The position numbers were made by a program, and so were the translations under genes. From an uncultured Chloroflexia bacterium (GTDB lineage: Bacteria; Chloroflexota; Limnocylindria; Limnocylindrales; CSP1-4), in the NCBI GenBank assembly GCA_963789865.1, contig CAWBMD010000001.1:129095-193094 (forward strand): DNA of 64,000 bases, read 5' to 3'. The notes under the pieces are model-generated. The model ran no database searches and was not told the origin of the DNA. It saw only the letters and a list, made by a program, of their open reading frames with translations. Each line of letters starts with the position of its first letter. The first letter of the stretch is position 1. Positions 20,624 through 29,400 of this stretch are shown here, piece after piece.

Positions 20624-21283
20624 TCAGCGGTCCCACCCGCCGCGCCCGACCAGCGGCACGAACACGACCGGCCCCTCGGAGCGGTCCACCCACTCGTTCC
20701 CGTGCCGCTCGACGACCAGCAGCTGCTGCTGCCGCCGGGAACCCACCGGGATCACAAGGCGCCGCCCATCTCCCAGCTGCTCCCGCAGCGCTGCTGGGAC
20801 CGCGGGGGCCGCGGCCGCGACGACGATGCCGTCCCACGGGGCCCCGTCCGGCAGGCCCAGGCTCCCGTCGCCCGCGCGGACGTCCACGTGGTCCGCGTAC
20901 CCCAGCTCCGCGAGTCGGTGGCGCGCGTCGTCCGCGAGACCCGGGCTGCGCTCGATCGTCGTCACCCGACAGCCGATCTCTGCGAGCACGGCCGCGGCGT
21001 AACCGGAACCCGTGCCCACCTCCAGGACGCGATCCCCGCTCCCGACGTGGAGCAGCTCGGTCATGCGCGCGACGATCCACGGCTGGCTGATCGTCTGGCC
21101 GCTGCCGATGGGCAGCGGACCGTCGCGGTACGCGAGGTCACGTTCGTCCGCGGGCACGAACCGCTCCCGCGGGACTGTGTCCATGGCGGCGATGACCCGC
21201 TCATCGTGGATGCCACGGGCCAGCAGCTGGTCCGCCACCATCCTCGCCCGGGCACCGCTCGCGCGTGCCCGGACCTCGTCCAT
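20624..21283 (-). CDS. pcm: Protein-L-isoaspartate O-methyltransferase
   Basis: GQTISQP, VLEVGTGSGYAAA, GDGSLG, FVPL. Confidence 0.93.
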   Translation of the reverse strand: MDEVRARASGARARMVADQLLARGIHDERVIAAMDTVPRERFVPADERDLAYRDGPLPIGSGQTISQPWIVARMTELLHVGSGDRVLEVGTGSGYAAAVLAEIGCRVTTIERSPGLADDARHRLAELGYADHVDVRAGDGSLGLPDGAPWDGIVVAAAAPAVPAALREQLGDGRRLVIPVGSRRQQQLLVVERHGNEWVDRSEGPVVFVPLVGRGGWDR

Positions 21284-21293
21284 GACTGCCGGT

Positions 21294-21888
21294 CTAGCTC
21301 GCCGACGGGCTCGGCGAGGCGGCGCCACTGGGCGATGCCGCGGGGCTGGCGGACGGTGCGGCCGTCGGTGCGGCTGTCGCCGACGGGGCTCGCCGTCGCG
21401 GAGGGGCTGGCCGTCGGCGAAGGCTTCGGTGTCGGCGCTGGGGTGGCCGTCGGTGCAGGCGTGGCCGTGGGTGCGGGTGTCGGCGTGGCCGTGACGTTGG
21501 TCACGAAGCCGCCCTGCCCGAACAGCAGCGCAAAGGCGAAGATCGCCACGAACACGCCGATCGTCGCGATGACGAACGCCGCGGACGCGCGGTCTTCGAC
21601 CTTGACCGCCTTGTCGGACATCGATGGCTCGGCGGGCACGGTGCCCTTGGCGCGCCGATCGCGAGCGGGTGCACCCTTCGACGCTGCGGCAGCGGCCGAC
21701 GCTGGCACGGGCTCGTCGTCGTCGGCCTCGTCGTCGGCCTCGTCGGCCTCGTCGTCGTCGGGCGCGTCTGCCTCGTCGGCCGGTTCGCCGGCGGCATCGG
21801 TCTCGAGCGCTGCGTCGTCCGCAGCTTCGGTGTCGTCCGTCGCGCCATCGGGGCCCAGGGCCTCCGGGTCGCGCTCCTTGTCGGTCAT
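21294..21888 (-). CDS. Hypothetical single-TM protein with acidic N-terminus and Pro/Thr/Ser-rich C-terminal tail
   Basis: DEAD-type acidic repeats, one TM, PTATPA repeats; C-terminus frameshifted. Confidence 0.65.
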
Positions 21889-21988
21889 GCCGTGATCGGT
21901 CTCCTCTCCGCGGGCGACGCCTGCAGGCACCGCCTCACGCGGCCGTCAGTGTACCCAGCCCCGCCCGCCTCCGGCCCGTCCGCCTGCG

Positions 21989-24158
21989 TCATGCCTCCCG
22001 CAGCGCCTTGACGCCCAGCCCGGCAAGCCCGGCCGCCATCGACAGCAGGCCCCCCGCAGCGATCACCGGACCCGGGCCCGAAGATGCTCACCAGCAGCCC
22101 GCCGACCGCCATCGCCACAGACATCCCGCCGAAGACCAGCGCGAACCGGAGGCTCACCACGCGCCCCATCAGCTCGGGCGGGGTGCGCTCCTGGAACAGC
22201 GTCTGGCTGGGGATGACGAACGCCATGTTGGCGACGCCGACCCCGAACAGCAGCCCCAGGACGAGCGGGATCGAGTTCGCGAGCCCGACCAGGAACACGA
22301 ACAGGCCGAAGACGGTGTAGGCGGCGATGACCATCGGCCCCTTGCGGACACGCGAGGCCACGAGGCCGAGCGCGAAGCCGCCGATCAGGCTGCCGAGCCC
22401 GATCGCCGTCTCCATGAACGCATAGGTGGCGCGGTACTCGTCGCCCGGGGAGTTGGTGATCTCCCGGGCCAGGACGATGCTCGAGACCGTGACGATGCCC
22501 ACGGCGAACTGGCCGGCCGTACCCTGCAGGGTGTTCGCCAGCAGGACGGTCTCGTGGCGGAGGAAGGCCCAGCCGGCCTTGAGGTCGGCGCGGATCGAGG
22601 CCGGGGCCCCGTCGCCGGTCCCGTCGCCGGCGCCCGCACCATCGGCGCCCGCGCCGCCGTCCACGCTCGCCGTCCAGGTTTCCCAGCTGCGCGCCCGCCG
22701 GACGAGCGGCGGCACGACGATCGTGGACAGCAGCGCCGCAGAGGCGAGGTAGGTGGCGGCGTCGAACCAGAACGCGATCGGGAGCGAGCTCGCCAGGAAC
22801 ACCACGAACAGGCCCGCGATCGGGTAGAACAGCACATCCGCGAGCGTCTCGCCCACCCACATGGCCGAGTTGGCGGAGAGCAGGTCGTTCTCCGGCACCA
22901 GCCGCGGCAGGACGGTCACCCGGGCCGGGCGGAAGAAGATCGAGACCGTGGTGATGAGGAAGACCAGCGGATACGCCAGCCAGACGTTGATCAGGATGGC
23001 GACCGGGATCAGCAGCACCAGCGCAGCCCGCAGGATGTCCGAGACCACCATCACCTGCTTCTGGTCCCAGCGGTCCACGTAGGCGCCGGCGACCGGCGAG
23101 AACAGCAGGTTGGGGATCGTCCCGACGAGGAAGGTCAGGGCGACTGCGATGGGGGAGTCGGTGATCTCGTAGACGAACGCGCCGAGCGCGATCTGGTTCA
23201 CGCGGTCGCCGAACAGGCTGATGACCTGGCCCACCCAGAGCGCGGAGAACGACCCGTTCAGGGCCAGGCGGACGTACGGGTGGCGACGAACCCTCTGCCG
23301 GAGCGAGCGACGGCGGGCCCGCCGATGGGGGATCGCGATCCCGCCAGGCACCAGGACCGCGGCGCCCCCGCCCTCCATGGCCATCGACGTCTGGGACGGC
23401 GACGACATGCCCATGCTGCCGGCACCCATCATCAGCGGCCGCTCGAGCGCGGCGGCTCCCTCGAGGCCCGGCGTGAGACCGGTTCCGGCGCGGACGTCCA
23501 GGCCGCCGGCGTCGGGCTCGCCGTCCGGGCCCTCGTGACGTCGCGGGAGGCGGGCGGTGCCCGACAGTCCCAGGTAGCGGCCGGTCTTCGCCTCGTCGAT
23601 GGCCGCCTGCGTCTCGGCCGGCGTCCGCATCAGGGTGGCGAACAGGAAGAACGCGAGGCCGGCGGTCAGGAACACGTCCCCGATCGAGGCGACGTTCCGG
23701 ACCAGCGGCAGCGGGATCGGGATCATGTCCCCGAGCGGGACCAGCCGGAACAGGAAGTCGGGGCCCGTTCCCGCGACCTTCACATGCAGCACCGAGGTCA
23801 GCTCGGGCGGCAGGCCGGAGGCCGTCAGCGCGGGCACCCAGACCGGCATGTGCCCGGCATTCACCAGGATCACCAGCGCGTTCAGGGCAATCCCGATGAA
23901 CGCCAGCGCCAGGCCCGGGTAGGAGCGGTTCTCCCACAGCGTGAACAGCAACAGCATGTACGCGGTGGCCAGGAGCGGCAGGCGCAGCGTTTCCACGATG
24001 TCCACCCCGTACCCGAGCAGCGTTTCGGTCCCGAAGCGGAGGATCACGGCCAGGAACAGGAGCGGCAGGAAGCGCAGCCTGATGTTGGTCAGGTGCTCCA
24101 GCTTTCCGCCCAGGAGCAGGCCGAGCACGAGCCCGAGCGCGATACCGCCGATCAGCAT
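21989..24158 (-). CDS. DUF5317-MFS transporter fusion (frameshift near the C-terminus)
   Basis: N-terminal ~175 aa with GIALNALVILVNAGHMPV and LGD..SIGD (DUF5317 signature); linker; MFS with LWVGQVISLFGD, AGAYVDRWD, QERTPPELMGRV. Confidence 0.85.
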
Positions 24159-24251
24159 CCCGAGATTGTGGGGCCGAGGGATGAGGCCGTGCGGGGCGTG
24201 TCGTGCGGACGTGGCAGGCCCTGCGCGTGCCGCCGGTGCTGCGCGTGCCCC

Positions 24252-24305
24252 GGGTCCGGTGCGCGGCGCGGGTCCAGTGCGCGGCGCGGGTCCAGTGCGC
24301 GGCGC
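24252..24305. repeat. Tandem repeat, 3 x 18 bp (GGGTCCRGTGCGCGGCGC)
   Basis: Units at 24252, 24270 and 24288, between the HD-GYP and DUF5317-MFS genes. Confidence 0.85.
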
Positions 24306-24366
24306 TCTTCACCACGTCCGATACGCCGGACGGCTCCGCGCCCCGGGAGGGGCACGAGGTCCATGC

Positions 24367-25731
24367 TCAGTTGGCGTCGGTCGTTGAGGGGCCGGCGGTC
24401 CGGTTGACGTGCTGCGAGATCAGCGGGATCGGCCGAGGCTGCAGGGTCCGGCCCGGGTCGGGCACGTCCTGGACCCAGTCGGTCTTCACGAAGGCGTCCA
24501 CCACCTTCGGGTCGAACTGGACCCCCGCGTACTTCCGCAGCTCGCCCAGGGCCACCTCGGGCGTGAGCGGGGTCATGCGGTAAGGACGGGCTGCCGTCAT
24601 CGCCTCGAACGCATCGGCAACGTGGAGGATCCGAGCGAGGAGCGGGATCTCGTCCCCGATGAGCCGGTCCGGGTAGCCCGAGCCGTTGAACCACTCATGG
24701 TGATGCCGGATGATCGGCACTTCGCGCGCAAGCCGCCTGACCGGGAAGATGATCTCGGCGCCCAGCACGGGGTGCGAGTTCATGATCTGCCGCTCTTCCC
24801 GGGTGAGGCGACTCGGCTTCTTCAGGACGTCGTCCGGCACGCCGATCTTGCCCACGTCGTGCAGCAGGCCGCCCCACTCCAGGGCCTCGAGGTCGCCCTC
24901 GCCGAGACGCATGACCCGCCCGATGTCGACGGAGATGTCCTTGACTCGCCTCGAGTGCATCGCGGTGGTCGGATCCCGCTTGTCCACGGCCCCAGCCAGC
25001 GCGGTGATGGTCTGCGTGAACATCTCCCGCATCTCGATGAAGTTGTGATAAGCGAGCCGCGTGGTGTAGAGGGGCAGGGCGAACAGCAGGCTGGACCACC
25101 AGACCACGGTGTACATCTGCGCCATCAGCCAGCCGAGAGGCGCCAAGCCGAGCAGGTTTGTGGTAAAGCCCCGAGGATCGCCGAGAGCAGCTGCGCGGAA
25201 CGGCTGTCCCGTTCTCAGTGCGAGACCGACAGCGGTCAGGTAGCATTGATGAGGAAGAAGAGCGCCGCGCCGGCATGGCTGCCGAGAAGTGCCGAGCGGT
25301 GTCATTCGCGCCGCGGATACGCCGGTGCGCGCATCAGAGCCCTGCGGCGATGCAGGGATGACAATTGCGGCGTGATTGGCGAGCGTGCCATACCAGGGGA
25401 TCCGGCCGCGCAGTTCGCGCAGTTCAGTCGTGCCAATCAGGGCGACCCACGCCCCCGCCGTCGGGCCGCCGAGGAACGTGGCGGCAATGAGCGGTGCGAG
25501 CGAGACACGCCACCATCGTTCCGCGGGGCATCCGCACGGGCAGCGCCGACGCGAGGAGGGTGACATACGCACCAGAAGGCGAGGCCGAGCTTGAGGCGGG
25601 TCCAATCCAAACGGCGACCCCGGCGAGGCTCATCGCGATCCCAGATCGGGAATCAAACGAGTCGTGGCAATCAGCGCAACCGCACCCACTACCACGACTC
25701 CAATGATGTAGAGCTTCAGCTTCGTCGGCAT
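24367..25731 (-). CDS. Membrane-anchored HD-GYP phosphodiesterase (multi-TM, MASE-type N-terminal sensor; sensor part frameshifted)
   Basis: ATG at 25731 after GAGG (MPTKLKLYIIGVVVVGA); LLHDVGK, HPVLG, HHHEWFNGSGYP, ADAFEAMTAARPYR. Confidence 0.9.
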
Positions 25732-25814
25732 TCGTCCTCAGCTCCGCGGTCGGTGGGACTCCAGCCCTCTTCGCCTCGGTGAACAGGACTTGCGTACTGA
25801 GGCTAGTGCTGCTC

Positions 25815-25967
25815 CTAGAAGCCCCTGAGTGACGCCCCGCCGGCCAGCGCCAAGGCGGCGACTGCGCCAAGGGCCGCCAGGATCGCTGAGGCGATCCTGA
25901 TCGCATCGGTCGATTCTCCCTGCGACCTTGACCTACCAGCCCTTGAGGATGCCATTTCCGGTGCCAC
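25815..25967 (-). CDS. 50-aa peptide precursor MAPEMASSRAGRSRSQGESTDAIRIASAILAALGAVAALALAGGASLRGF (absent from the ORF track)
   Basis: Perfect SD AAGGAGGT 7 nt before GTG; open frame to TAG; charged N-region, ~18-aa hydrophobic core, GGA plus short tail; first gene behind the riboswitch. Confidence 0.8.
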   Translation of the reverse strand: MAPEMASSRAGRSRSQGESTDAIRIASAILAALGAVAALALAGGASLRGF

Positions 25968-26003: not shown

Positions 26004-26040
26004 AACACGAAAACCGACCTGACTCGAAAGTCGGTCGGTT
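26004..26040 (-). terminator. Intrinsic terminator (riboswitch expression platform)
   Basis: AACCGACC-GACT-TTCG-AGTC-A-GGTCGGTT followed by TTCGTGTT; its 5' arm is the 3' end of the aptamer. Confidence 0.8.
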
Positions 26041-26116
26041 GCACTATTCGCTCCGCCTCCACCCTAAGTGCCCAATTCAGGTGGTGGCATCAGCGCGTCC
26101 GAGCGTTTCCTTGACT
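26029..26116 (-). promoter_or_regulatory. c-di-GMP-II (class II) riboswitch-like aptamer
   Basis: GGAAAC..TGATG-CCACCACCT-GAATTGGGCACTT-AGGGTGG..TAGTGCAACCGACC: matches the class II core as I recall it (AAUUGGGCACUU / AGUGCAACCGACC), with a CCACC/GGTGG pseudoknot; lies upstream of an HD-GYP gene. Confidence 0.82.
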
Positions 26117-26147: not shown

Positions 26148-26177
26148 ACTATAGGGAGCCCTGTCCACACCGGTCAA
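26148..26177 (-). promoter_or_regulatory. sigma70-type promoter for the riboswitch-peptide-HD-GYP operon
   Basis: TTGACC-N18-TATAGT, followed by a 5' hairpin (TGCACTAGTAC/GTACTGTGCA) and the aptamer. Confidence 0.7.
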
Positions 26178-26463: not shown

Positions 26464-29400
26464 TTACAGATCCTCGATCCTTGGGGGTTCCAGACCCAAT
26501 TGATCGCGAAGCACGGACGCGTAGTGCGCATACTGCTCAGCCGCTGCGGCCGGGGCGCCGAGCAGTCGATACAGACGAACGACCTGAGCCTCGATTTGAT
26601 CAGCCTCAGGGTCGATCAGGAGGGCTTGCTGACCGACCCACAGCCTCCAGCGCAGGTCGGACCCCTGTCGATCGCCCACAATCGCGCTTTCGACCTCGCC
26701 AAGGTACCGAGCGTGAAGGTTGTCGCGATAACTGGATGCCCAATCCTCGTACGGAAAGTCGGACGCAAAGCGCCCGCGGTAGTTCGCGACCAACTCCTCC
26801 ATCAAGGCAGGCGTAGCGGGGCGCGCGTTGAGGAGTATCTGGCAGCGCCAACTGCGGCATGAGATGAGCTCCGAGTCGAGCCAGATGACCTCGCTGTCGA
26901 AGTGCACGTATTCAGGCGACACTCCAGCTCGATACTCCGAATCAATGACCCGTCTGAGGAAGTAGATGGTTTGATGGATCGAGTTGCTGCCCTGTTCCGG
27001 ATCTAGTTCTGGCCATAGGGCATCCATCACCCGGTCCGGCGTGGCGGCTCCATTCGGCTGGCTCGCGAGAAATGCCAGGAGGGCGAGCACTTTGCGCCGT
27101 ATGCCGCGCCCGTCAACGAGTCGGTCGCCGAGGATGATCGAAATGGGCCCGAGGTCCTCGACCATGGCTCGCGGTGCAAGCCGCCGCGCCAGTTCTCCAC
27201 CCCAGTTGCGAGTCGATCGCCGACCAAGGCGCCCGTATTCACGCAAAGTCTGAATGTCCGCCGACTCCCCGATGAGCTCGAGCAGCGCCGCGGCGTGGTC
27301 GGATCGCCCGGGTTGGATGGCGCCCCGGAGATCATTCCTGAGCGGGCCGCGCCAGCGATGCGGTGATCCTTTGGCAGCACGAATTACGACATTAAGTGCC
27401 TGCTCAGACATCTCGTTGAGGCTTCCGGCGATCTCCGATGCGAATACGCCTAGAAAGGCATCAACCTGAGGCGTCCAAGACTCGATTATCCTCGAGGCTT
27501 GGACGGGATCAGTTCCAAGCCCGCGCAGCAGGGATGCGAGGCGTCCCTCAACGGGCGACCTTTGCTCCGCGGCAACTTCCTCGGCTTTCGAAACCTCGGC
27601 CACGAACTTGTGCACGGCGCCCGTCGCGAGGTATGAGCGGGCCTTTGTGAGGTGCCATCGGAAGGTTGCCCCGACCTCCAGCGACTGAGTCGGGGCGTCC
27701 GGCAGCCGATCCAAGATCTCGCCGCGGAGCCGCGGGTCTTTCTCGAGCCACAGGTCGAGGACTCTCCAGTGCAGCTCCCAGTCCGCTGGCAGGGTCTCGC
27801 GACGCACGCTCGAGAGGATCCGGTTTGGCAAATCCTGTGGGCCAAACCATGCCGCGAGGCTGGCTGCCTCGAGCACTGCCTCAGCTTGGCCTTCGGGGTG
27901 CGTGGTGCCCAGGGCAAAATCGAGGATCACCTGAGCGCGGGTCCAACGGCCGAGATGCGCCTCCGCACGCGCCTGCACGAGTCGAACTGAGACAAGTTCG
28001 TAGCCTTGCGACGAGCGGGCGAGCAAGTGTTCTGCATCGCCCGCGAGCCGAAGCGCCTCCGTGTCTCGGTCAAGGAGCACTAGTACCTGCGCCAAGTTCA
28101 GACTCGTGATCGCCGCGTGGTGCCAGTGTGCCTGCTTGCGCTGGGCTGTCAGCAGTCGCTCAAGCTGGTGGGCCAGGGCCGGGAGACTGCCGGTGCCGGA
28201 TCCGCCGAGAATCGCAACGTAGGCGCTTGCCAGTTCCCGATCTCGTCCACTAGTACTCTCCGCCAGCGCCCTGTGAGCGTAGACGAGGGCTTCCTCATAC
28301 TGGCGAGCACCGAGCGAAATTGTCGCAGCGTTCTGTAGTGCGATGGATATGCAGTCGGGGCGCAGTATCTCGGCCGACCGGACGGCCGCGGCGGCTGCTT
28401 CTCGAGCCTCGATGGCCGCCCCTACCTGCAGCAGCAGCCGTGACCGGAGAACCTCCCCGACCACCGCGACCTCGTCGGTGCCAGCGAGCAGGTCGGCAGC
28501 CGCCCGGTACTGACCACTGCCCAGGACCTGACTGAGAGCGCGCTGAATGACTTCGCCAGCTAGGTTGGGCTCGCAAGCCTCCCGGTAATGGTGAGCGGAG
28601 AGTCGCCACGACACGAGCGCGAGCGAGGCCCCAATGGCTAGATGCTTGTCACGGATCCATGCGGTCCCAACCTCTCGCTCGGAGGCGGGCAAGTAGGTAC
28701 TCTTGGACGAGCGGCACAAAACGTCGCCCGCCCTCGATGTCGGATCCGACGAGAAGGCCCAAATCGTCGGCGGCGCGAATGAGCCGGACGCAATCGTCTC
28801 TGCTTCCCGCGCCGAGCATCGACGCAGTCTCGGGCTCAATACACTCGAGGATCGAAGCCTTGATCAAGAAGTCCGACAGGGGTAGAGGAACGTGATCGAG
28901 GACTTCCTCGGTTAGGTAGTCCCTGAGTTCGCCAGCCGCGCCCGATAGGCTCCTGACGAGTCCTCGAGTCTCGTTTGCACCCCGGCCTTCCAGGCTCGTT
29001 TGGACCAGCGAGAGGAGGGCGGGCCAGCCCTGCGTGCGGTCGATCAGGTCCGTGACGACGTCCGGGTCGAGTGGCTGGTGGTAGGCGTCGCGGAACAGGC
29101 GCTCGGCCTCGGGGACGGTGAAGCACAGAGCGTCACCGTCGATCCTGGAGACCGCGCCGCGCGACCGCATCCGGCCCAGCGGGAGGGACGGCGTCATGCG
29201 GGATGCGAGGACCATCGAGAACCCGGGTCCGGTCCGCTCGAGAAGCGCACGCATGATTGGCTCGGTCTCGGGGCTGCCATCGACGCTGTGGTAGTCGTCG
29301 AACAGCAGGCTCAGCCCGTCCGGGAGAGATGAGGCGAGCTCGCTCATCTCTCGCGCGACGCTCATGGTCAGCTCGTCACGCGTCGGTCCACCCGGTCCGA

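What the first reader, a model, noticed from the sequence alone, without database searches (positions are those of the whole stretch)
23620..24158. DUF5317 looks like a signal-peptidase-II-like aspartic intramembrane protease
Seen: GIALNALVILVNAGHMPV followed by LGDMIPIPLPLVRNVASIGDVFL, with two Asp residues 17 apart (codons 23727-23729 and 23676-23678). Known: LspA (peptidase family A8) has GAxGNxxDR...VxDF...FNxAD, with two catalytic Asp about 18-19 residues apart followed by a TM helix. Inference: the motif order and spacing match, and the neighbouring peptide has a lipobox-like LAG-G, so DUF5317 may be its dedicated maturase.
Basis: inference. Interest (0 to 1): 0.82.

Follow-up and report, generated by a model that had tools for sequence, protein, structure and literature searches.

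The report
DUF5317 membrane module with partner micro-peptide
The two-aspartate membrane domain is real but is not a lipoprotein signal peptidase; it is fused to a transporter and travels across phyla with an unannotated 25-40-residue signal-peptide-like peptide gene and a c-di-GMP phosphodiesterase, which makes it a candidate new peptide-processing or peptide-sensing cassette.

Summary
Window 24158..23620 (-) encodes a DUF5317 domain (Pfam E 5e-26).

It is not an LspA (peptidase A8) member:
- no Pfam or PDB sequence match;
- five TM helices, not four;
- Foldseek and VIA-align found no LspA, whereas the genome's real LspA hits 5DIR/6RYO at E 1e-10 to 3e-11.

A local likeness remains. In both AF2 models the first Asp sits in a strand pair and the second in the first turn of the last TM helix. 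A weak profile alignment puts both Asp pairs in register (score 27.5; 16 nulls reach at most 17.0).

- The domain is fused in frame to an MFS_3 transporter.
- It follows a membrane HD-GYP gene.
- The operon starts with a c-di-GMP-II riboswitch.
- The "neighbouring peptide" is a conserved coding micro-gene with a Cys-less, lipobox-like [LIVM]-A-[GSA]-G-A motif. It lies beside DUF5317 in 31 of 52 loci and occurs once in the 2.48-Mb genome.

Best reading (0.4): DUF5317 is a dedicated outer-face peptidase for this peptide, in a c-di-GMP-linked cassette. No cleavage has been shown.

The parts
26148..26177 (-). sigma-70-like promoter (TTGACC, 18 nt, TATAGT) ahead of the riboswitch
   Evidence: 10 of 12 matches; 1 site found against a mean of 0.1 in shuffles. 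This is a consensus match only.
26026..26109 (-). c-di-GMP-II riboswitch aptamer, 5' leader of the operon
   Evidence: RF01786, 61.6 bits (gathering score 53.5), E 4.8e-12, full model 1-84. Found at the same position in relatives: L085, L086, L094, L162, L164 and L165 at or above the gathering score; L084 at 51.1 and L093 at 38.8 bits, both below it; L087 as the GAG variant at 40.9 bits.
26012..26036 (-). terminator-like hairpin plus T-run; its 5' arm overlaps the 3' end of the aptamer (candidate expression platform)
   Evidence: 9 pairs, 7-nt loop, T tail. The fold shows the same hairpin (z -2.55). Which way the switch acts is not determined.
25815..25967 (-). micro-peptide gene: basic N-terminus, about 18 hydrophobic residues, L-A-G-G-A-S, then tail LRGF and stop. 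In the window it is readable only from the GTG at 25967 (50 aa). Relatives start at an ATG that corresponds to window 25906-25904 (27-29 aa).
   Evidence: AAGGAGG lies 8 nt before the GTG. In 12 genus-level orthologues a GGAGGA box precedes the ATG in 11; variable sites by codon position are 16/8/25; 720 pairwise codon differences are synonymous against 372 non-synonymous. One contig of run X1 lacks 2 letters at 25899, which would put that ATG in frame.
24367..25731 (-). membrane HD-GYP (c-di-GMP phosphodiesterase) gene, broken by frame changes in the window (pieces 25731..25630 and 25605..24367)
   Evidence: HD_5 at E 8.9e-39. Intact 459-477-aa orthologues begin with the 33-aa piece at 25731..25630. 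Their N-terminal 5-7 TM region gives a weak MASE9 match, E 1.3e-4, 22.4 bits, below the 24.3-bit cut-off.
23620..24158 (-). DUF5317 domain (residues 1-180): 5 TM helices, N-terminus out and C-terminus in, with a four-strand segment (residues 104-158) on the outer face
   Evidence: Pfam. AF2 model with pLDDT 94.7, pTM 0.87. K+R density is 0.21, 0.25 and 0.16 in loops 1, 3 and the C-terminus, against 0.09 and 0.06 in loops 2 and 4.
23727..23729 (-). codon of D144, first residue of strand 144-148
23676..23678 (-). codon of D161 (S-x-G-D), first turn of the last TM helix (159-177)
23290..23619 (-). Arg-rich linker (about residues 181-290) between DUF5317 and MFS, with no stop codon
   Evidence: The same fusion is called in nearly all of the best 120 'longer' homologues.
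21885..23289 (-). MFS transporter domain (MFS_1/MFS_3, DHA3-like). The frame departs from a 94%-identical relative after residue 697.
   Evidence: Pfam MFS_1 5e-21 and MFS_3 1.1e-13; NCBIfam TIGR00900 2.3e-57, below its cut-off. P0255 comparison. Contigs of runs X5 and X10 lack 1 letter at 22074.

Best explanation
Window 24158..21885 (-) encodes one protein: an N-terminal DUF5317 domain fused to an MFS_3/DHA3-type transporter.

DUF5317 is a 5-TM module with its N-terminus outside and its C-terminus inside. An invariant polar cluster sits at the outer membrane face: N93 and N100 at the end of TM4, M104-P105, D144 at the start of a strand, and S158-x-G160-D161 at the start of TM5.

I read it as a dedicated juxtamembrane aspartyl peptidase. 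It is convergent with LspA, or only very remotely related to it, and is not a family A8 member.

Its proposed substrate is the micro-peptide encoded at the head of the same operon. That peptide would insert with its N-terminus inside and its C-terminus outside. This places its conserved [LIVM]-A-[GSA]-G-A motif (a lipobox with Gly in place of the lipidated Cys) at the same membrane face as the two Asp. Cleavage there would release a 4-8-residue C-terminal peptide, usually containing Trp or Phe, and leave the TM stub in the membrane.

The cassette also holds a membrane HD-GYP c-di-GMP phosphodiesterase and an MFS_3 exporter. In this lineage it is transcribed behind a c-di-GMP-II riboswitch.

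Shown here: domain identity, conservation, predicted topology, gene fusions, synteny, that the peptide gene is coding, and the riboswitch. Inferred: catalysis, the cleavage site, and the roles of the HD-GYP and the MFS.
For: 1. Both Asp are invariant: 24 of 24 and 33 of 33 in HMM-picked domains.

2. They lie on the outer face. K+R is enriched in loops 1, 3 and the C-terminus. The C-terminus is joined to an MFS domain in nearly all of the best 120 longer homologues. That MFS N-termini are cytoplasmic is established knowledge.

3. The local architecture is shared. DUF5317 has E144-148 (D144), E155-158 and H159-177 (D161). The genome's own LspA model has E156-164 (D158), E167-172 and H174-191 (D176). 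Each has four strands in all.

4. hhalign of DUF5317 (163 sequences) against LspA (29 sequences) scores 27.5 (P 0.0018, probability 15%) over 57 columns. It aligns D144 with the LspA V-V-D Asp and D161 with the N-x-A-D Asp. Sixteen null comparisons (reversed profiles, MFS windows) scored 10.2-17.0.

5. The peptide gene is real. It has a ribosome-binding site, third-position-biased variation (16/8/25 variable sites by codon position) and 720 synonymous against 372 non-synonymous codon differences in 12 orthologues.

6. The peptide gene travels with DUF5317.
- A peptide HMM gave 54 hits at E<=0.1 among 16,220 frame tails of the loci; 21 of them were the seeds.
- It gave only 1 hit below E 1 among the 42,680 tails of the whole 2.48-Mb genome, the window's own peptide.
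- 31 of 52 loci with +-5 kb of flank have a hit; 32 of 34 hits are on the DUF5317 strand and 29 are upstream.
- The gap to DUF5317 is 47-300 nt in the loci where the peptide gene lies directly upstream.
- 18 of 20 upstream-only, class-level loci have a hit.
- It is also found in Gaiellaceae, an Actinomycetes MAG, Dormiibacterota and Roseiflexaceae (E<=0.001), and more weakly in Bipolaricaulota (E 0.14) and Gaiellales (E 0.22).

7. In 27 diverse peptides G-A is invariant and the Ala two residues before it is nearly so. The tail after the motif is 4-7 residues in 44 of 49.

8. The cassette is linked by fusions and synteny.
- An HD-GYP lies within 5 kb in 28 of 52 Chloroflexota loci, and on the same strand within 2 kb in 14 of 18 cross-phylum loci.
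- DUF5317::MFS_3 occurs here, and TM-HD-GYP::MFS_3 (844-847 aa) lies next to a stand-alone DUF5317 in L095, L106, L109 and L114.
- The riboswitch is documented.
Against: - There is no global fold or sequence link to any peptidase. Foldseek's best E was 2.3; the VIA-wide top 50 were generic helical bundles with Z<=8.9; no PDB or Pfam match appeared other than PF17248.
- The hhalign probability is only 6-15%. The tool's own hhalign on the smaller alignments preferred a different 16-column match (DUF residues 10-25 with LspA 134-149, probability 26%), which is inconsistent with the topology.
- I could not see model coordinates, so strand pairing and the Asp-Asp distance are inferred from DSSP strings only.
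- 21 of 52 loci have no peptide hit at E<=0.1. No peptide was found in the two Bacillota loci or the Sumerlaeota locus.
- The four loci with cytosolic PAS/GAF-HD-GYP (L089, L090, L097, L098) have no peptide hit.
- A basic N-terminus, a TM helix, small residues and Trp at the interface are also what an uncleaved single-pass subunit would look like.
- The LspA residues other than the dyad (D and K in H1, N and G in the cradle, G-N-x-x-D-R) have no counterpart.
- In the window itself the peptide start, the HD-GYP and the MFS C-terminus are out of frame relative to relatives.
Confidence: 0.4

Rival explanations
1. DUF5317 has no catalytic role. It is a membrane adaptor or sensor. The micro-peptide is an uncleaved single-pass subunit or intramembrane ligand, and the two together modulate the membrane HD-GYP (MASE9-like TM domain) and the MFS transporter. 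The invariant Asn/Asp/Ser cluster would bind the small A-x-G-A face of the peptide, or a cation.
For: - The same synteny and fusion evidence applies.
- The peptide looks like a small TM protein: positive N-terminus and aromatic residues at both interfaces.
- Passages of the HD-GYP census preprint (10.1101/2021.11.05.467447, read with 'find') propose that MASE9 binds its ligand within the membrane.
- The four loci whose HD-GYP lacks TM segments also lack a peptide hit.
- No peptidase fold was detected.
Against: - Twelve invariant or near-invariant residues, including two Asp, three Asn and a Ser, across sequences about 25-35% identical are more typical of a catalytic or ion site than of a docking surface.
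- The best-conserved part of the peptide is a short small-residue motif at the membrane exit followed by a variable tail. That is the pattern of a cleavage site.
- In several loci the peptide lies directly beside DUF5317 with no HD-GYP within 5 kb: 11 of 24 such loci.
Confidence: 0.3
2. DUF5317 is an accessory or ion-coupling module of the MFS_3 transporter, for example a cation or proton site or a substrate gate at the outer face. The micro-ORF would be mainly a translated leader that helps regulate the operon downstream of the riboswitch.
For: - The domain is fused in frame to MFS_3 in hundreds of sequences.
- An MFS_3 is fused to the HD-GYP where DUF5317 stands alone.
- Relatives carry a second 9-10-codon mini-ORF ending F/V/I-K-G-W between the terminator and the peptide gene, which suggests leader-type regulation.
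- The Asp/Asn/Ser cluster could bind a cation.
Against: - Most DUF5317 genes outside this class stand alone. In the 52 loci I did not see an adjacent MFS beyond the two fusion types, but my MFS scan worked poorly, so this point is weak.
- A mere leader would not keep a protein-level motif across phyla, nor occur in two tandem copies each with its own ribosome-binding site, as in L087.
- The riboswitch is lineage-restricted while the peptide is not.
Confidence: 0.12
3. DUF5317 is a true, divergent paralogue of lipoprotein signal peptidase (family A8) that processes lipoproteins.
For: Two Asp 17 apart followed by a TM helix, and the weak hhalign register.
Against: - No PF01252 match.
- 5 TM helices, not 4.
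- No LspA in the structure searches, while the positive control worked.
- The genome has a canonical LspA on contig C5.
- The partner peptide has no Cys.
Confidence: 0.02

Closest known systems
Lipoprotein signal peptidase II, LspA (MEROPS A8, PF01252; PDB 5DIR, 6RYO, 6RYP)
   Same: - Small polytopic membrane protein of about 170-190 residues.
- Two invariant Asp 17-19 residues apart at the outer membrane boundary.
- The first Asp lies in a strand pair and the second in the first turn of the last TM helix.
- Four strands on the outer face.
- A polar residue at -3 and a small residue at -1 of the second Asp: N-x-A-D in LspA, S-x-G-D here.
- The candidate substrate has [LIVM]-A-[GSA] before the putative scissile bond.

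   Different: - 5 TM helices (N-out, C-in) against 4 (N-in, C-in).
- All strands lie between TM4 and TM5 rather than partly in the H1-H2 loop.
- None of the other conserved LspA residues is present.
- No Pfam, PDB or fold match.
- The substrate has Gly-Ala where LspA needs diacylglyceryl-Cys.
- The domain is fused to an MFS here.

AgrB/AgrD/AgrC peptide quorum sensing of staphylococci (recalled, not tested here)
   Same: A short precursor peptide with a membrane-associating N-terminal part, a dedicated polytopic membrane peptidase of about 190 residues encoded beside it, and a multi-TM receptor in the same operon with autoregulation.
   Different: AgrB is a Cys/His enzyme with no relation to DUF5317. 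The output there is a histidine kinase, whereas here it is an HD-GYP c-di-GMP phosphodiesterase and a riboswitch. No thiolactone chemistry is implied. None of the 24 DUF5317 members matched any Pfam family other than PF17248 at E below 0.001.
Enterococcal sex pheromones and SHP/XIP-type pheromones cut out of signal-peptide-like precursors (recalled)
   Same: The active peptide is a 5-8-residue piece at the end of a signal-peptide-like sequence, released by membrane proteases.
   Different: Those systems use the housekeeping LspA plus the metalloprotease Eep and an ABC exporter, and cytoplasmic RRNPP receptors. Here the candidate protease is dedicated and the partners are an MFS and an HD-GYP.
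MASE9-HD-GYP proteins (T. maritima TM1467, S. venezuelae HdgA); census preprint 10.1101/2021.11.05.467447 (passages read)
   Same: The neighbouring gene has the same architecture: a multi-TM N-terminal domain plus HD-GYP. The census proposes ligand binding within the membrane.
   Different: The MASE9 match here is below the cut-off (22.4 against 24.3 bits). The census text holds 0 occurrences of DUF5317 or MFS.
c-di-GMP riboswitch-controlled surface protease/adhesin switch of Clostridioides difficile (ZmpI, CD2831) (recalled)
   Same: c-di-GMP riboswitches govern a protease-substrate pair at the cell surface.
   Different: That protease is a secreted metalloprotease and its substrates are large adhesins. 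The gene families differ.

Membership tests
DUF5317 (PF17248) | Pfam profile match above the gathering score | tested here: met
   E 5e-26, 92 bits against 25; profile positions 1-150 of 151.
Peptidase A8 / LspA (PF01252) | Profile match to Peptidase_A8 | tested here: not met
   0 of 24 members match at E<=10. The genome's real LspA matches at 4.7e-32.
Peptidase A8 / LspA (PF01252) | Four TM helices with both termini in the cytoplasm | tested here: not met
   The AF2 model has 5 TM helices. Charge counts and the MFS fusion give N-out, C-in. The LspA definition comes from PMC6952399 (passages).
Peptidase A8 / LspA (PF01252) | Two catalytic Asp at the outer membrane boundary, about 18-19 apart | tested here: inconclusive
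   Two invariant Asp 17 apart are present at the predicted outer face, in equivalent secondary-structure elements. Catalysis and juxtaposition could not be tested.
Peptidase A8 / LspA (PF01252) | The other 12 highly conserved residues (D, K in H1; N, G in the cradle; G, N, D, R in H3; V; F, N, A) | tested here: not met
   The LspA invariants in A2 (D62, K66, N93, G95, G142, G145, N146, D149, R150, V156, N173) have no aligned counterpart in the hhalign output beyond the dyad region.
Peptidase A8 / LspA (PF01252) | Fold like 5DIR/6RYO | tested here: inconclusive
   No LspA chain appears among Foldseek hits at E<=10, the VIA-wide top 50, or the VIA second look. The control LspA model hits 5DIR/6RYO/6RYP at E 3e-11 to 2e-10 with TM 0.80-0.87.
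Peptidase A8 / LspA (PF01252) | Substrate lipobox with a diacylglyceryl-Cys at +1 | tested here: not met
   The partner peptides have Gly-Ala at +1/+2. Only 1 of the 50 anchored peptide hits has a Cys after the motif (L107, GCGWW).
GxGD intramembrane aspartyl proteases (presenilin / prepilin peptidase type; features recalled) | Both Asp inside adjacent TM helices of a core with 6 or more TM helices; second Asp in G-x-G-D | tested here: not met
   D144 lies in a strand of the outer loop. The second motif is S-x-G-D. The domain has 5 TM helices. No such chain appears in the fold lists, which alone would be inconclusive.
Major facilitator superfamily (MFS_1 PF07690, MFS_3 PF05977) | Profile match above the gathering score in the C-terminal part | tested here: met
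   MFS_1 at 75.4 bits against 33.4; MFS_3 at 50.9 against 27.
c-di-GMP-II riboswitch (RF01786) | Covariance-model score at or above the gathering score, in a 5' leader | tested here: met
   61.6 bits against 53.5, full length, followed by a terminator-like hairpin and the operon.
HD-GYP (HD_5 PF13487) neighbour | Profile match above the gathering score | tested here: met
   133.4 bits against 27.2. The gene is out of frame near its 5' end in the window.

The most novel reading that the evidence does not exclude
The cassette is a peptide signalling loop wired to c-di-GMP, with these steps:
1. The c-di-GMP-II riboswitch sets transcription of a micro-peptide precursor.
2. DUF5317, a new family of juxtamembrane aspartyl peptidases, cuts the precursor at the Cys-less lipobox.
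3. Either the released 4-8-residue Trp/Phe peptide or the TM stub left in the membrane is sensed within the membrane by the MASE9-like domain of the HD-GYP phosphodiesterase.
4. The phosphodiesterase changes c-di-GMP and so feeds back on the riboswitch.
5. The MFS_3 partner exports or clears one of the products.

This would be an Agr-like autocrine or quorum circuit whose output is a second messenger rather than phosphorylation. It would be present in Chloroflexota, Actinomycetota and several candidate phyla.
Probability: 0.15. Interest if true: 0.92.

Novelty: new variant of a known kind. Interest (0 to 1): 0.78.

Why it matters
- DUF5317 has at least 2,357 representative clusters, and two full-text searches found no paper naming it.
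- This work gives the family a topology, an invariant outer-face Asp pair and a conserved gene partnership. The partners are an unannotated micro-peptide family, membrane HD-GYP phosphodiesterases and MFS_3 transporters, plus a c-di-GMP-II riboswitch in one class.
- If DUF5317 is a peptidase, it is a new family of membrane aspartyl proteases with a dedicated ribosomal peptide substrate.
- If it is not, the cassette still offers a first candidate ligand or partner for MASE9-type HD-GYP sensors, whose signals are unknown.
- Either outcome is directly testable with a 190-residue domain, a 30-residue peptide and two Asp-to-Asn mutants.

Tried and rejected
- Sequence search of PDB with the protein and with the A1 profile: 0 matches at E<=10.
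- Foldseek against PDB, VIA-wide and VIA second look on the DUF5317 model: only generic helical matches and no LspA chain listed. This absence does not show that the folds differ.
- Tool hhalign of A1 against A2: the top match was DUF residues 10-25 with LspA 134-149 (G-L-L-L-G-G), probability 26%. I rejected it because that segment is at the cytoplasmic end of TM1 in DUF5317 but at the outer end of H3 in LspA.
- Weak PF01252 hits in G068, G056 and G079 were followed in case they were DUF5317. They are a separate family of 125-133-aa LspA-like proteins.
- Complex prediction (TM domain of the L096 HD-GYP, residues 1-232, with its DUF5317): 'no answer', score 0.00. This is no evidence either way.
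- The look-up of sequencing runs: no RNA holder listed; the holders have small shares (0.14-0.18).
- Read laying: only short contigs of relatives. They were used for the indel notes and nothing else. Parts of 25180-25770 had little or no cover.
- Peptide family look-ups: no Pfam or NCBIfam family for 5 peptides at E<=10, apart from one chance 0.14 hit.
- A heuristic small-ORF scan of L157, L159, L160, L168, L171 and L172 found nothing.
- c-di-GMP riboswitches were not found at the gathering score in 14 further Chloroflexota loci, nor in the non-Limnocylindria cross-phylum loci.
- My jackhmmer scan for MFS neighbours returned almost nothing, even for known fusions, so I draw no count from it.
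- Single-linkage clustering of neighbours merged unrelated frames and was used only to pick proteins for Pfam.
- Literature: 'DUF5317' and 'PF17248' gave 0 papers each. 'MASE9' gave 2 papers, one of them irrelevant. I read passages only of PMC6952399 and of 10.1101/2021.11.05.467447. Supplements were not opened, and the census's supplementary figure S5 on MASE9 may bear on the neighbour claim.
Full report
**What is at the coordinates**

The minus-strand ORF 24158..21885 gives 757 residues. D144 and D161 fall on codons 23729-23727 and 23678-23676, as stated.

Pfam places DUF5317 (PF17248) on residues 25-172 at E 5e-26. It places MFS_1 and MFS_3 on residues about 302-682. NCBIfam's best model for the C-terminal part is the DHA3-type TIGR00900, at 2.3e-57 but below its cut-off. 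There is no stop between the two domains.

The fusion is not an accident of a GC-rich frame. A search among longer proteins found 942 with E<=0.001. Nearly all of the best 120 are 580-760-aa proteins carrying PF17248 + PF05977 + PF07690; five (P0324, P0333, P0347, P0004, P0360; 336-360 aa) carry PF17248 only. Several are labelled Limnocylindrales or Chloroflexota.

The finding is therefore a domain of a fusion protein. The genome is a 51%-complete, 9-contig assembly with one DUF5317 copy.

**Is the motif more than chance?**

A whole-library phmmer run found 2,357 representative proteins at E<=0.001.

In a 24-sequence alignment these residues are invariant: N93, N100, M104, P105, D144, P149, P151, V156, S158, G160, D161 and G167.

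In 33 Chloroflexota domains chosen only by an HMM, about 25-35% identical to the query:
- D144, D161, N77, G89, N93, M104, P105, G160 and G167 are 33 of 33;
- S158 and G102 are 32 of 33;
- N100 is 29 of 33.

The larger 163-row table is partly circular. 131 of its rows had been picked with a regular expression that demands N-x-G-x-M-P and x-x-G-D. I do not lean on it for those residues.

**Tests of the LspA reading**

Sequence. No member of A1 matches Peptidase_A8 even at E<=10. No PDB chain matches the protein or its profile at E<=10. The genome has a canonical LspA on contig C5, with G-N-L-I-D-R, V-V-D-W and N-I-G-D.

Structure. The AF2 model is confident (pLDDT 94.7, pTM 0.87). It has helices 2-15, 31-49, 59-76, 81-99 and 159-177, and strands 104-107, 125-128, 144-148 and 155-158.
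- Foldseek against PDB gave nothing below E 2.3.
- VIA-align against 48,161 chains gave only generic helical matches with Z<=8.9.
- The second look at Foldseek's own matches gave nothing.
- As a positive control I folded the genome's own LspA (pLDDT 83.5). It hits 5DIR, 6RYO and 6RYP at E 3e-11 to 2e-10 with TM 0.80-0.87.

LspA is defined by four TM helices, a beta-cradle, a dyad at the outer surface and 14 conserved residues (PMC6952399, passages). DUF5317 has five helices and lacks the other conserved residues. It is not a family member.

**What survives of the LspA idea**

Topology. K+R density is 0.21, 0.25 and 0.16 in loop 1, loop 3 and the C-terminus. It is 0.09 and 0.06 in loop 2 and the long loop 4. 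The C-terminus leads into an MFS domain, whose N-terminus is cytoplasmic by established knowledge. So loop 4 and the start of TM5, which hold both Asp, face outward, as in LspA.

Local architecture.

| | strand 1 (first Asp) | strand 2 | last TM helix (second Asp) |
|---|---|---|---|
| Own LspA model | 156-164 (D158) | 167-172 | 174-191 (D176, first turn) |
| DUF5317 model | 144-148 (D144) | 155-158 | 159-177 (D161, first turn) |

Both models have four strands in all. I could not obtain coordinates, so strand pairing and Asp proximity are inference.

Profile comparison. My hhalign of 163 DUF5317 sequences against 29 LspA sequences scores 27.5 (P 0.0018, probability 15%). It aligns D144 with the V-V-D Asp, and D161 with the N-x-A-D Asp plus the last helix. 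Sixteen null comparisons scored 10.2-17.0. These were reversed LspA, reversed DUF5317, 7 MFS windows and their 7 reversals. Seven comparisons of LspA against MFS windows scored at most 16.1. This is above background but far from proof. The tool's own hhalign on the smaller alignments preferred another, topologically inconsistent 16-column match.

**The surroundings change the picture**

The upstream gene (25605..24367) is an HD-GYP phosphodiesterase (HD_5, E 8.9e-39).

A c-di-GMP-II riboswitch lies at 26109..26026 (-), at 61.6 bits and E 4.8e-12. A promoter-like site precedes it. A terminator-like hairpin follows, and its 5' arm overlaps the aptamer's 3' end. The same riboswitch is found in the same place in relatives:
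- L085, L086, L094, L162, L164 and L165, at or above the gathering score;
- L084 (51.1 bits) and L093 (38.8 bits), below it;
- L087, as the GAG variant (40.9 bits).

It was not found in 14 other Chloroflexota loci, nor in other phyla.

HD-GYP adjacency is wide.
- It occurs in 28 of 52 Chloroflexota loci with +-5 kb of flank. I chose 12 of those loci partly knowing the answer. The other 40 were all remaining full-length, phylum-level hits except those of unpublished G220, one I overlooked (G148), and partial matches.
- It occurs in 14 of 18 loci from other lineages fetched with one distant member, on the same strand within 2 kb. These lineages include Caldatribacteriota, Sumerlaeota, a Bacteroidota-labelled MAG, Bipolaricaulota, Gaiellales, Actinomycetes, Eubacteriales and Limiplasma.

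Most of these HD-GYPs have 5-7 predicted TM segments before the catalytic domain. One gives a sub-threshold MASE9 match.

Fusions tie three modules together:
- DUF5317::MFS_3 here;
- TM-HD-GYP::MFS_3 (844-847 aa) directly upstream of a stand-alone DUF5317 in L095, L106, L109 and L114;
- TM-GGDEF-HD-GYP beside DUF5317 in L107, L113, L115, L116 and L117.

Two metagenomic fragments (P0122, P0107) carry HD_5 and DUF5317 in one called ORF. This fits adjacency. As a true fusion it would contradict the topology, so I treat it as read-through.

**The peptide**

Between the riboswitch and the HD-GYP gene lies the ORF 25967..25815 (-), which ends ...AILAALGAVAALALAGGASLRGF.

Genus-level relatives have a 29-codon gene, M-K-D-R-L-M-R-x-L-A-A-L-x-A-V-A-A-x-A-L-A-G-G-A-S-L-[KR]-G-F. 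A GGAGGA box lies 7 nt before the ATG in 11 of the 12 orthologues compared; L139 has AAGGAG instead. Variable sites by codon position are 16, 8 and 25. Pairwise codon differences are 720 synonymous against 372 non-synonymous. It is a coding gene under purifying selection.

More distant loci have the same kind of gene, for example L087 with two tandem copies, and L092, L109, L114, L125, L118, L169 and L173.

Aligned, 27 diverse peptides share:
- a basic N-terminus;
- about 18 hydrophobic residues;
- a nearly invariant Ala, then [GSA], then an invariant G-A;
- a tail that mostly holds Trp or Phe.

The tail is 4-7 residues long in 44 of 49 unique hits.

An HMM built from 21 seed peptides gave these results:
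- 54 hits at E<=0.1 among 16,220 frame tails of the loci;
- 1 hit below E 1 among all 42,680 frame tails of the 2.48-Mb genome, which is the window's own peptide; the next best E is 2.9;
- a hit in 31 of 52 +-5-kb loci, with 32 of 34 hits on the DUF5317 strand and 29 upstream;
- spacing of 47-300 nt in the loci where the peptide gene lies directly upstream of DUF5317, about 1.4-1.8 kb with an HD-GYP between, and about 2.65 kb with HD-GYP::MFS between;
- a hit in 11 of the 24 loci without an HD-GYP;
- a hit in 18 of 20 upstream-only, class-level loci.

The misses: 21 of 52 loci, including the four with cytosolic PAS/GAF-HD-GYP. Outside Chloroflexota 9 of 18 loci have a hit at E<=0.25 and 7 of 18 at E<=0.01. 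None was found in the two Bacillota loci or the Sumerlaeota locus.

No Pfam or NCBIfam model covers the peptides. Database look-ups for existing annotation could not be made.

**Mechanism**

The peptide's charge distribution predicts N-in, C-out. That puts A-[GSA]-G-A at the outer end of its helix, on the same face as the DUF5317 Asp pair. The residues before the invariant Gly fit lipobox positions -3 to -1 ([LVI]-[ASTVI]-[GAS], recalled consensus), with Gly-Ala replacing the lipid-modified Cys.

I therefore commit, at 0.4, to DUF5317 being a dedicated outer-face aspartyl peptidase for this peptide. Its active-site module is LspA-like by convergence or by very remote descent.

The main rival, at 0.3, is an uncleaved TM peptide that docks on a non-catalytic DUF5317 and signals within the membrane to the MASE9-like HD-GYP. 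Lesser rivals are a transporter-accessory or ion site (0.12) and a true A8 paralogue (0.02).

**State of the window copy**

Compared with relatives, the window is out of frame in three places:
- at the peptide's ATG; one X1 contig lacks 2 letters at 25899;
- near the 5' end of the HD-GYP gene; the first 33 codons, 25731..25630, are in another frame;
- after residue 697 of the MFS; relative P0255 differs from there on, and X5 and X10 contigs lack 1 letter at 22074.

I cannot tell assembly error from decay. The conclusions rest on the family, not on this copy.

**Verdict**

The LspA membership claim is rejected. The 'dedicated maturase of the neighbouring peptide' idea is upgraded to a well-founded but unproven hypothesis. 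A cross-phylum cassette of micro-peptide, membrane HD-GYP, DUF5317 and MFS_3, with a c-di-GMP-II riboswitch in one class, is described. I found nothing in print on it.

Noticed in passing
window 24367-25731 (-): The HD-GYP gene is split. Intact 459-477-aa orthologues start with the 33-codon piece 25731..25630, and part of the next stretch matches another frame (25424..25906). Either the assembly has indel errors or the gene is decaying.
   Followed up: partly
window about 22074 (-), residue about 697 of the fusion protein: The last 60 or so residues of the MFS domain differ completely from the 94%-identical relative P0255. Contigs of runs X5 and X10 lack one letter at 22074, so the window carries a frame change at the C-terminus.
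   Followed up: partly
L084 8220-8635, L085 8420-8830, L086 8430-8845, L093, L094 (leader regions); window 25930-25967: Relatives have a second, 9-10-codon mini-ORF with a strong ribosome-binding site between the terminator and the peptide gene. It ends F/V/I-K-G-W and stop, echoing the peptide's own K/R-G-F/W end. In the window a frame difference fuses it to the peptide frame. It may be a regulatory leader or a leaderless copy of the tail.
   Followed up: no
window 24159-24366 (-): The spacer between the HD-GYP stop and the DUF5317 start holds three head-to-tail copies of an 18-nt unit (CGCGCCGCGCACTGGACC-like). Relatives' contigs are diverged over 24237-24309.
   Followed up: no
L052 (G068:C65), L053 (G056:C163), L054 (G079:C2): A separate family of short (125-133 aa) LspA-like proteins with G-N, D-W and T-N-[VI]-A-D motifs. 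They score below the PF01252 cut-off (E 1e-4 to 7e-4) and occur in genomes that also have a normal LspA.
   Followed up: partly
window 26464-28839 (-): The BTAD/winged-helix regulator upstream is 791 aa here. It aligns only to the C-terminal two thirds of 1,168-1,195-aa orthologues, which carry an AAA_16 ATPase and TPR part. The N-terminal third may lie in another frame.
   Followed up: no
window 21061-21930 (-) and 20624-21328 (-): Downstream genes are conserved in synteny within the genus: an acidic, Thr/Pro-rich single-TM protein with no Pfam family, and a protein-L-isoaspartate O-methyltransferase (PCMT, E 6.8e-57).
   Followed up: no
L004, L005, L006, L016, L079, L074 (same genus or family): A second, stand-alone DUF5317 paralogue (motifs L-T-D and S-[VI]-G-D, with Y-S-N-S in loop 4) exists in relatives. 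It was not found in this half-complete genome. The two paralogue loci in the peptide scan (L134, L135) gave no peptide or HD-GYP hit.
   Followed up: partly
L108 8593-8729 (-): A c-di-AMP (ydaO-type) riboswitch lies about 3 kb from a DUF5317 gene in another Chloroflexota genome.
   Followed up: no
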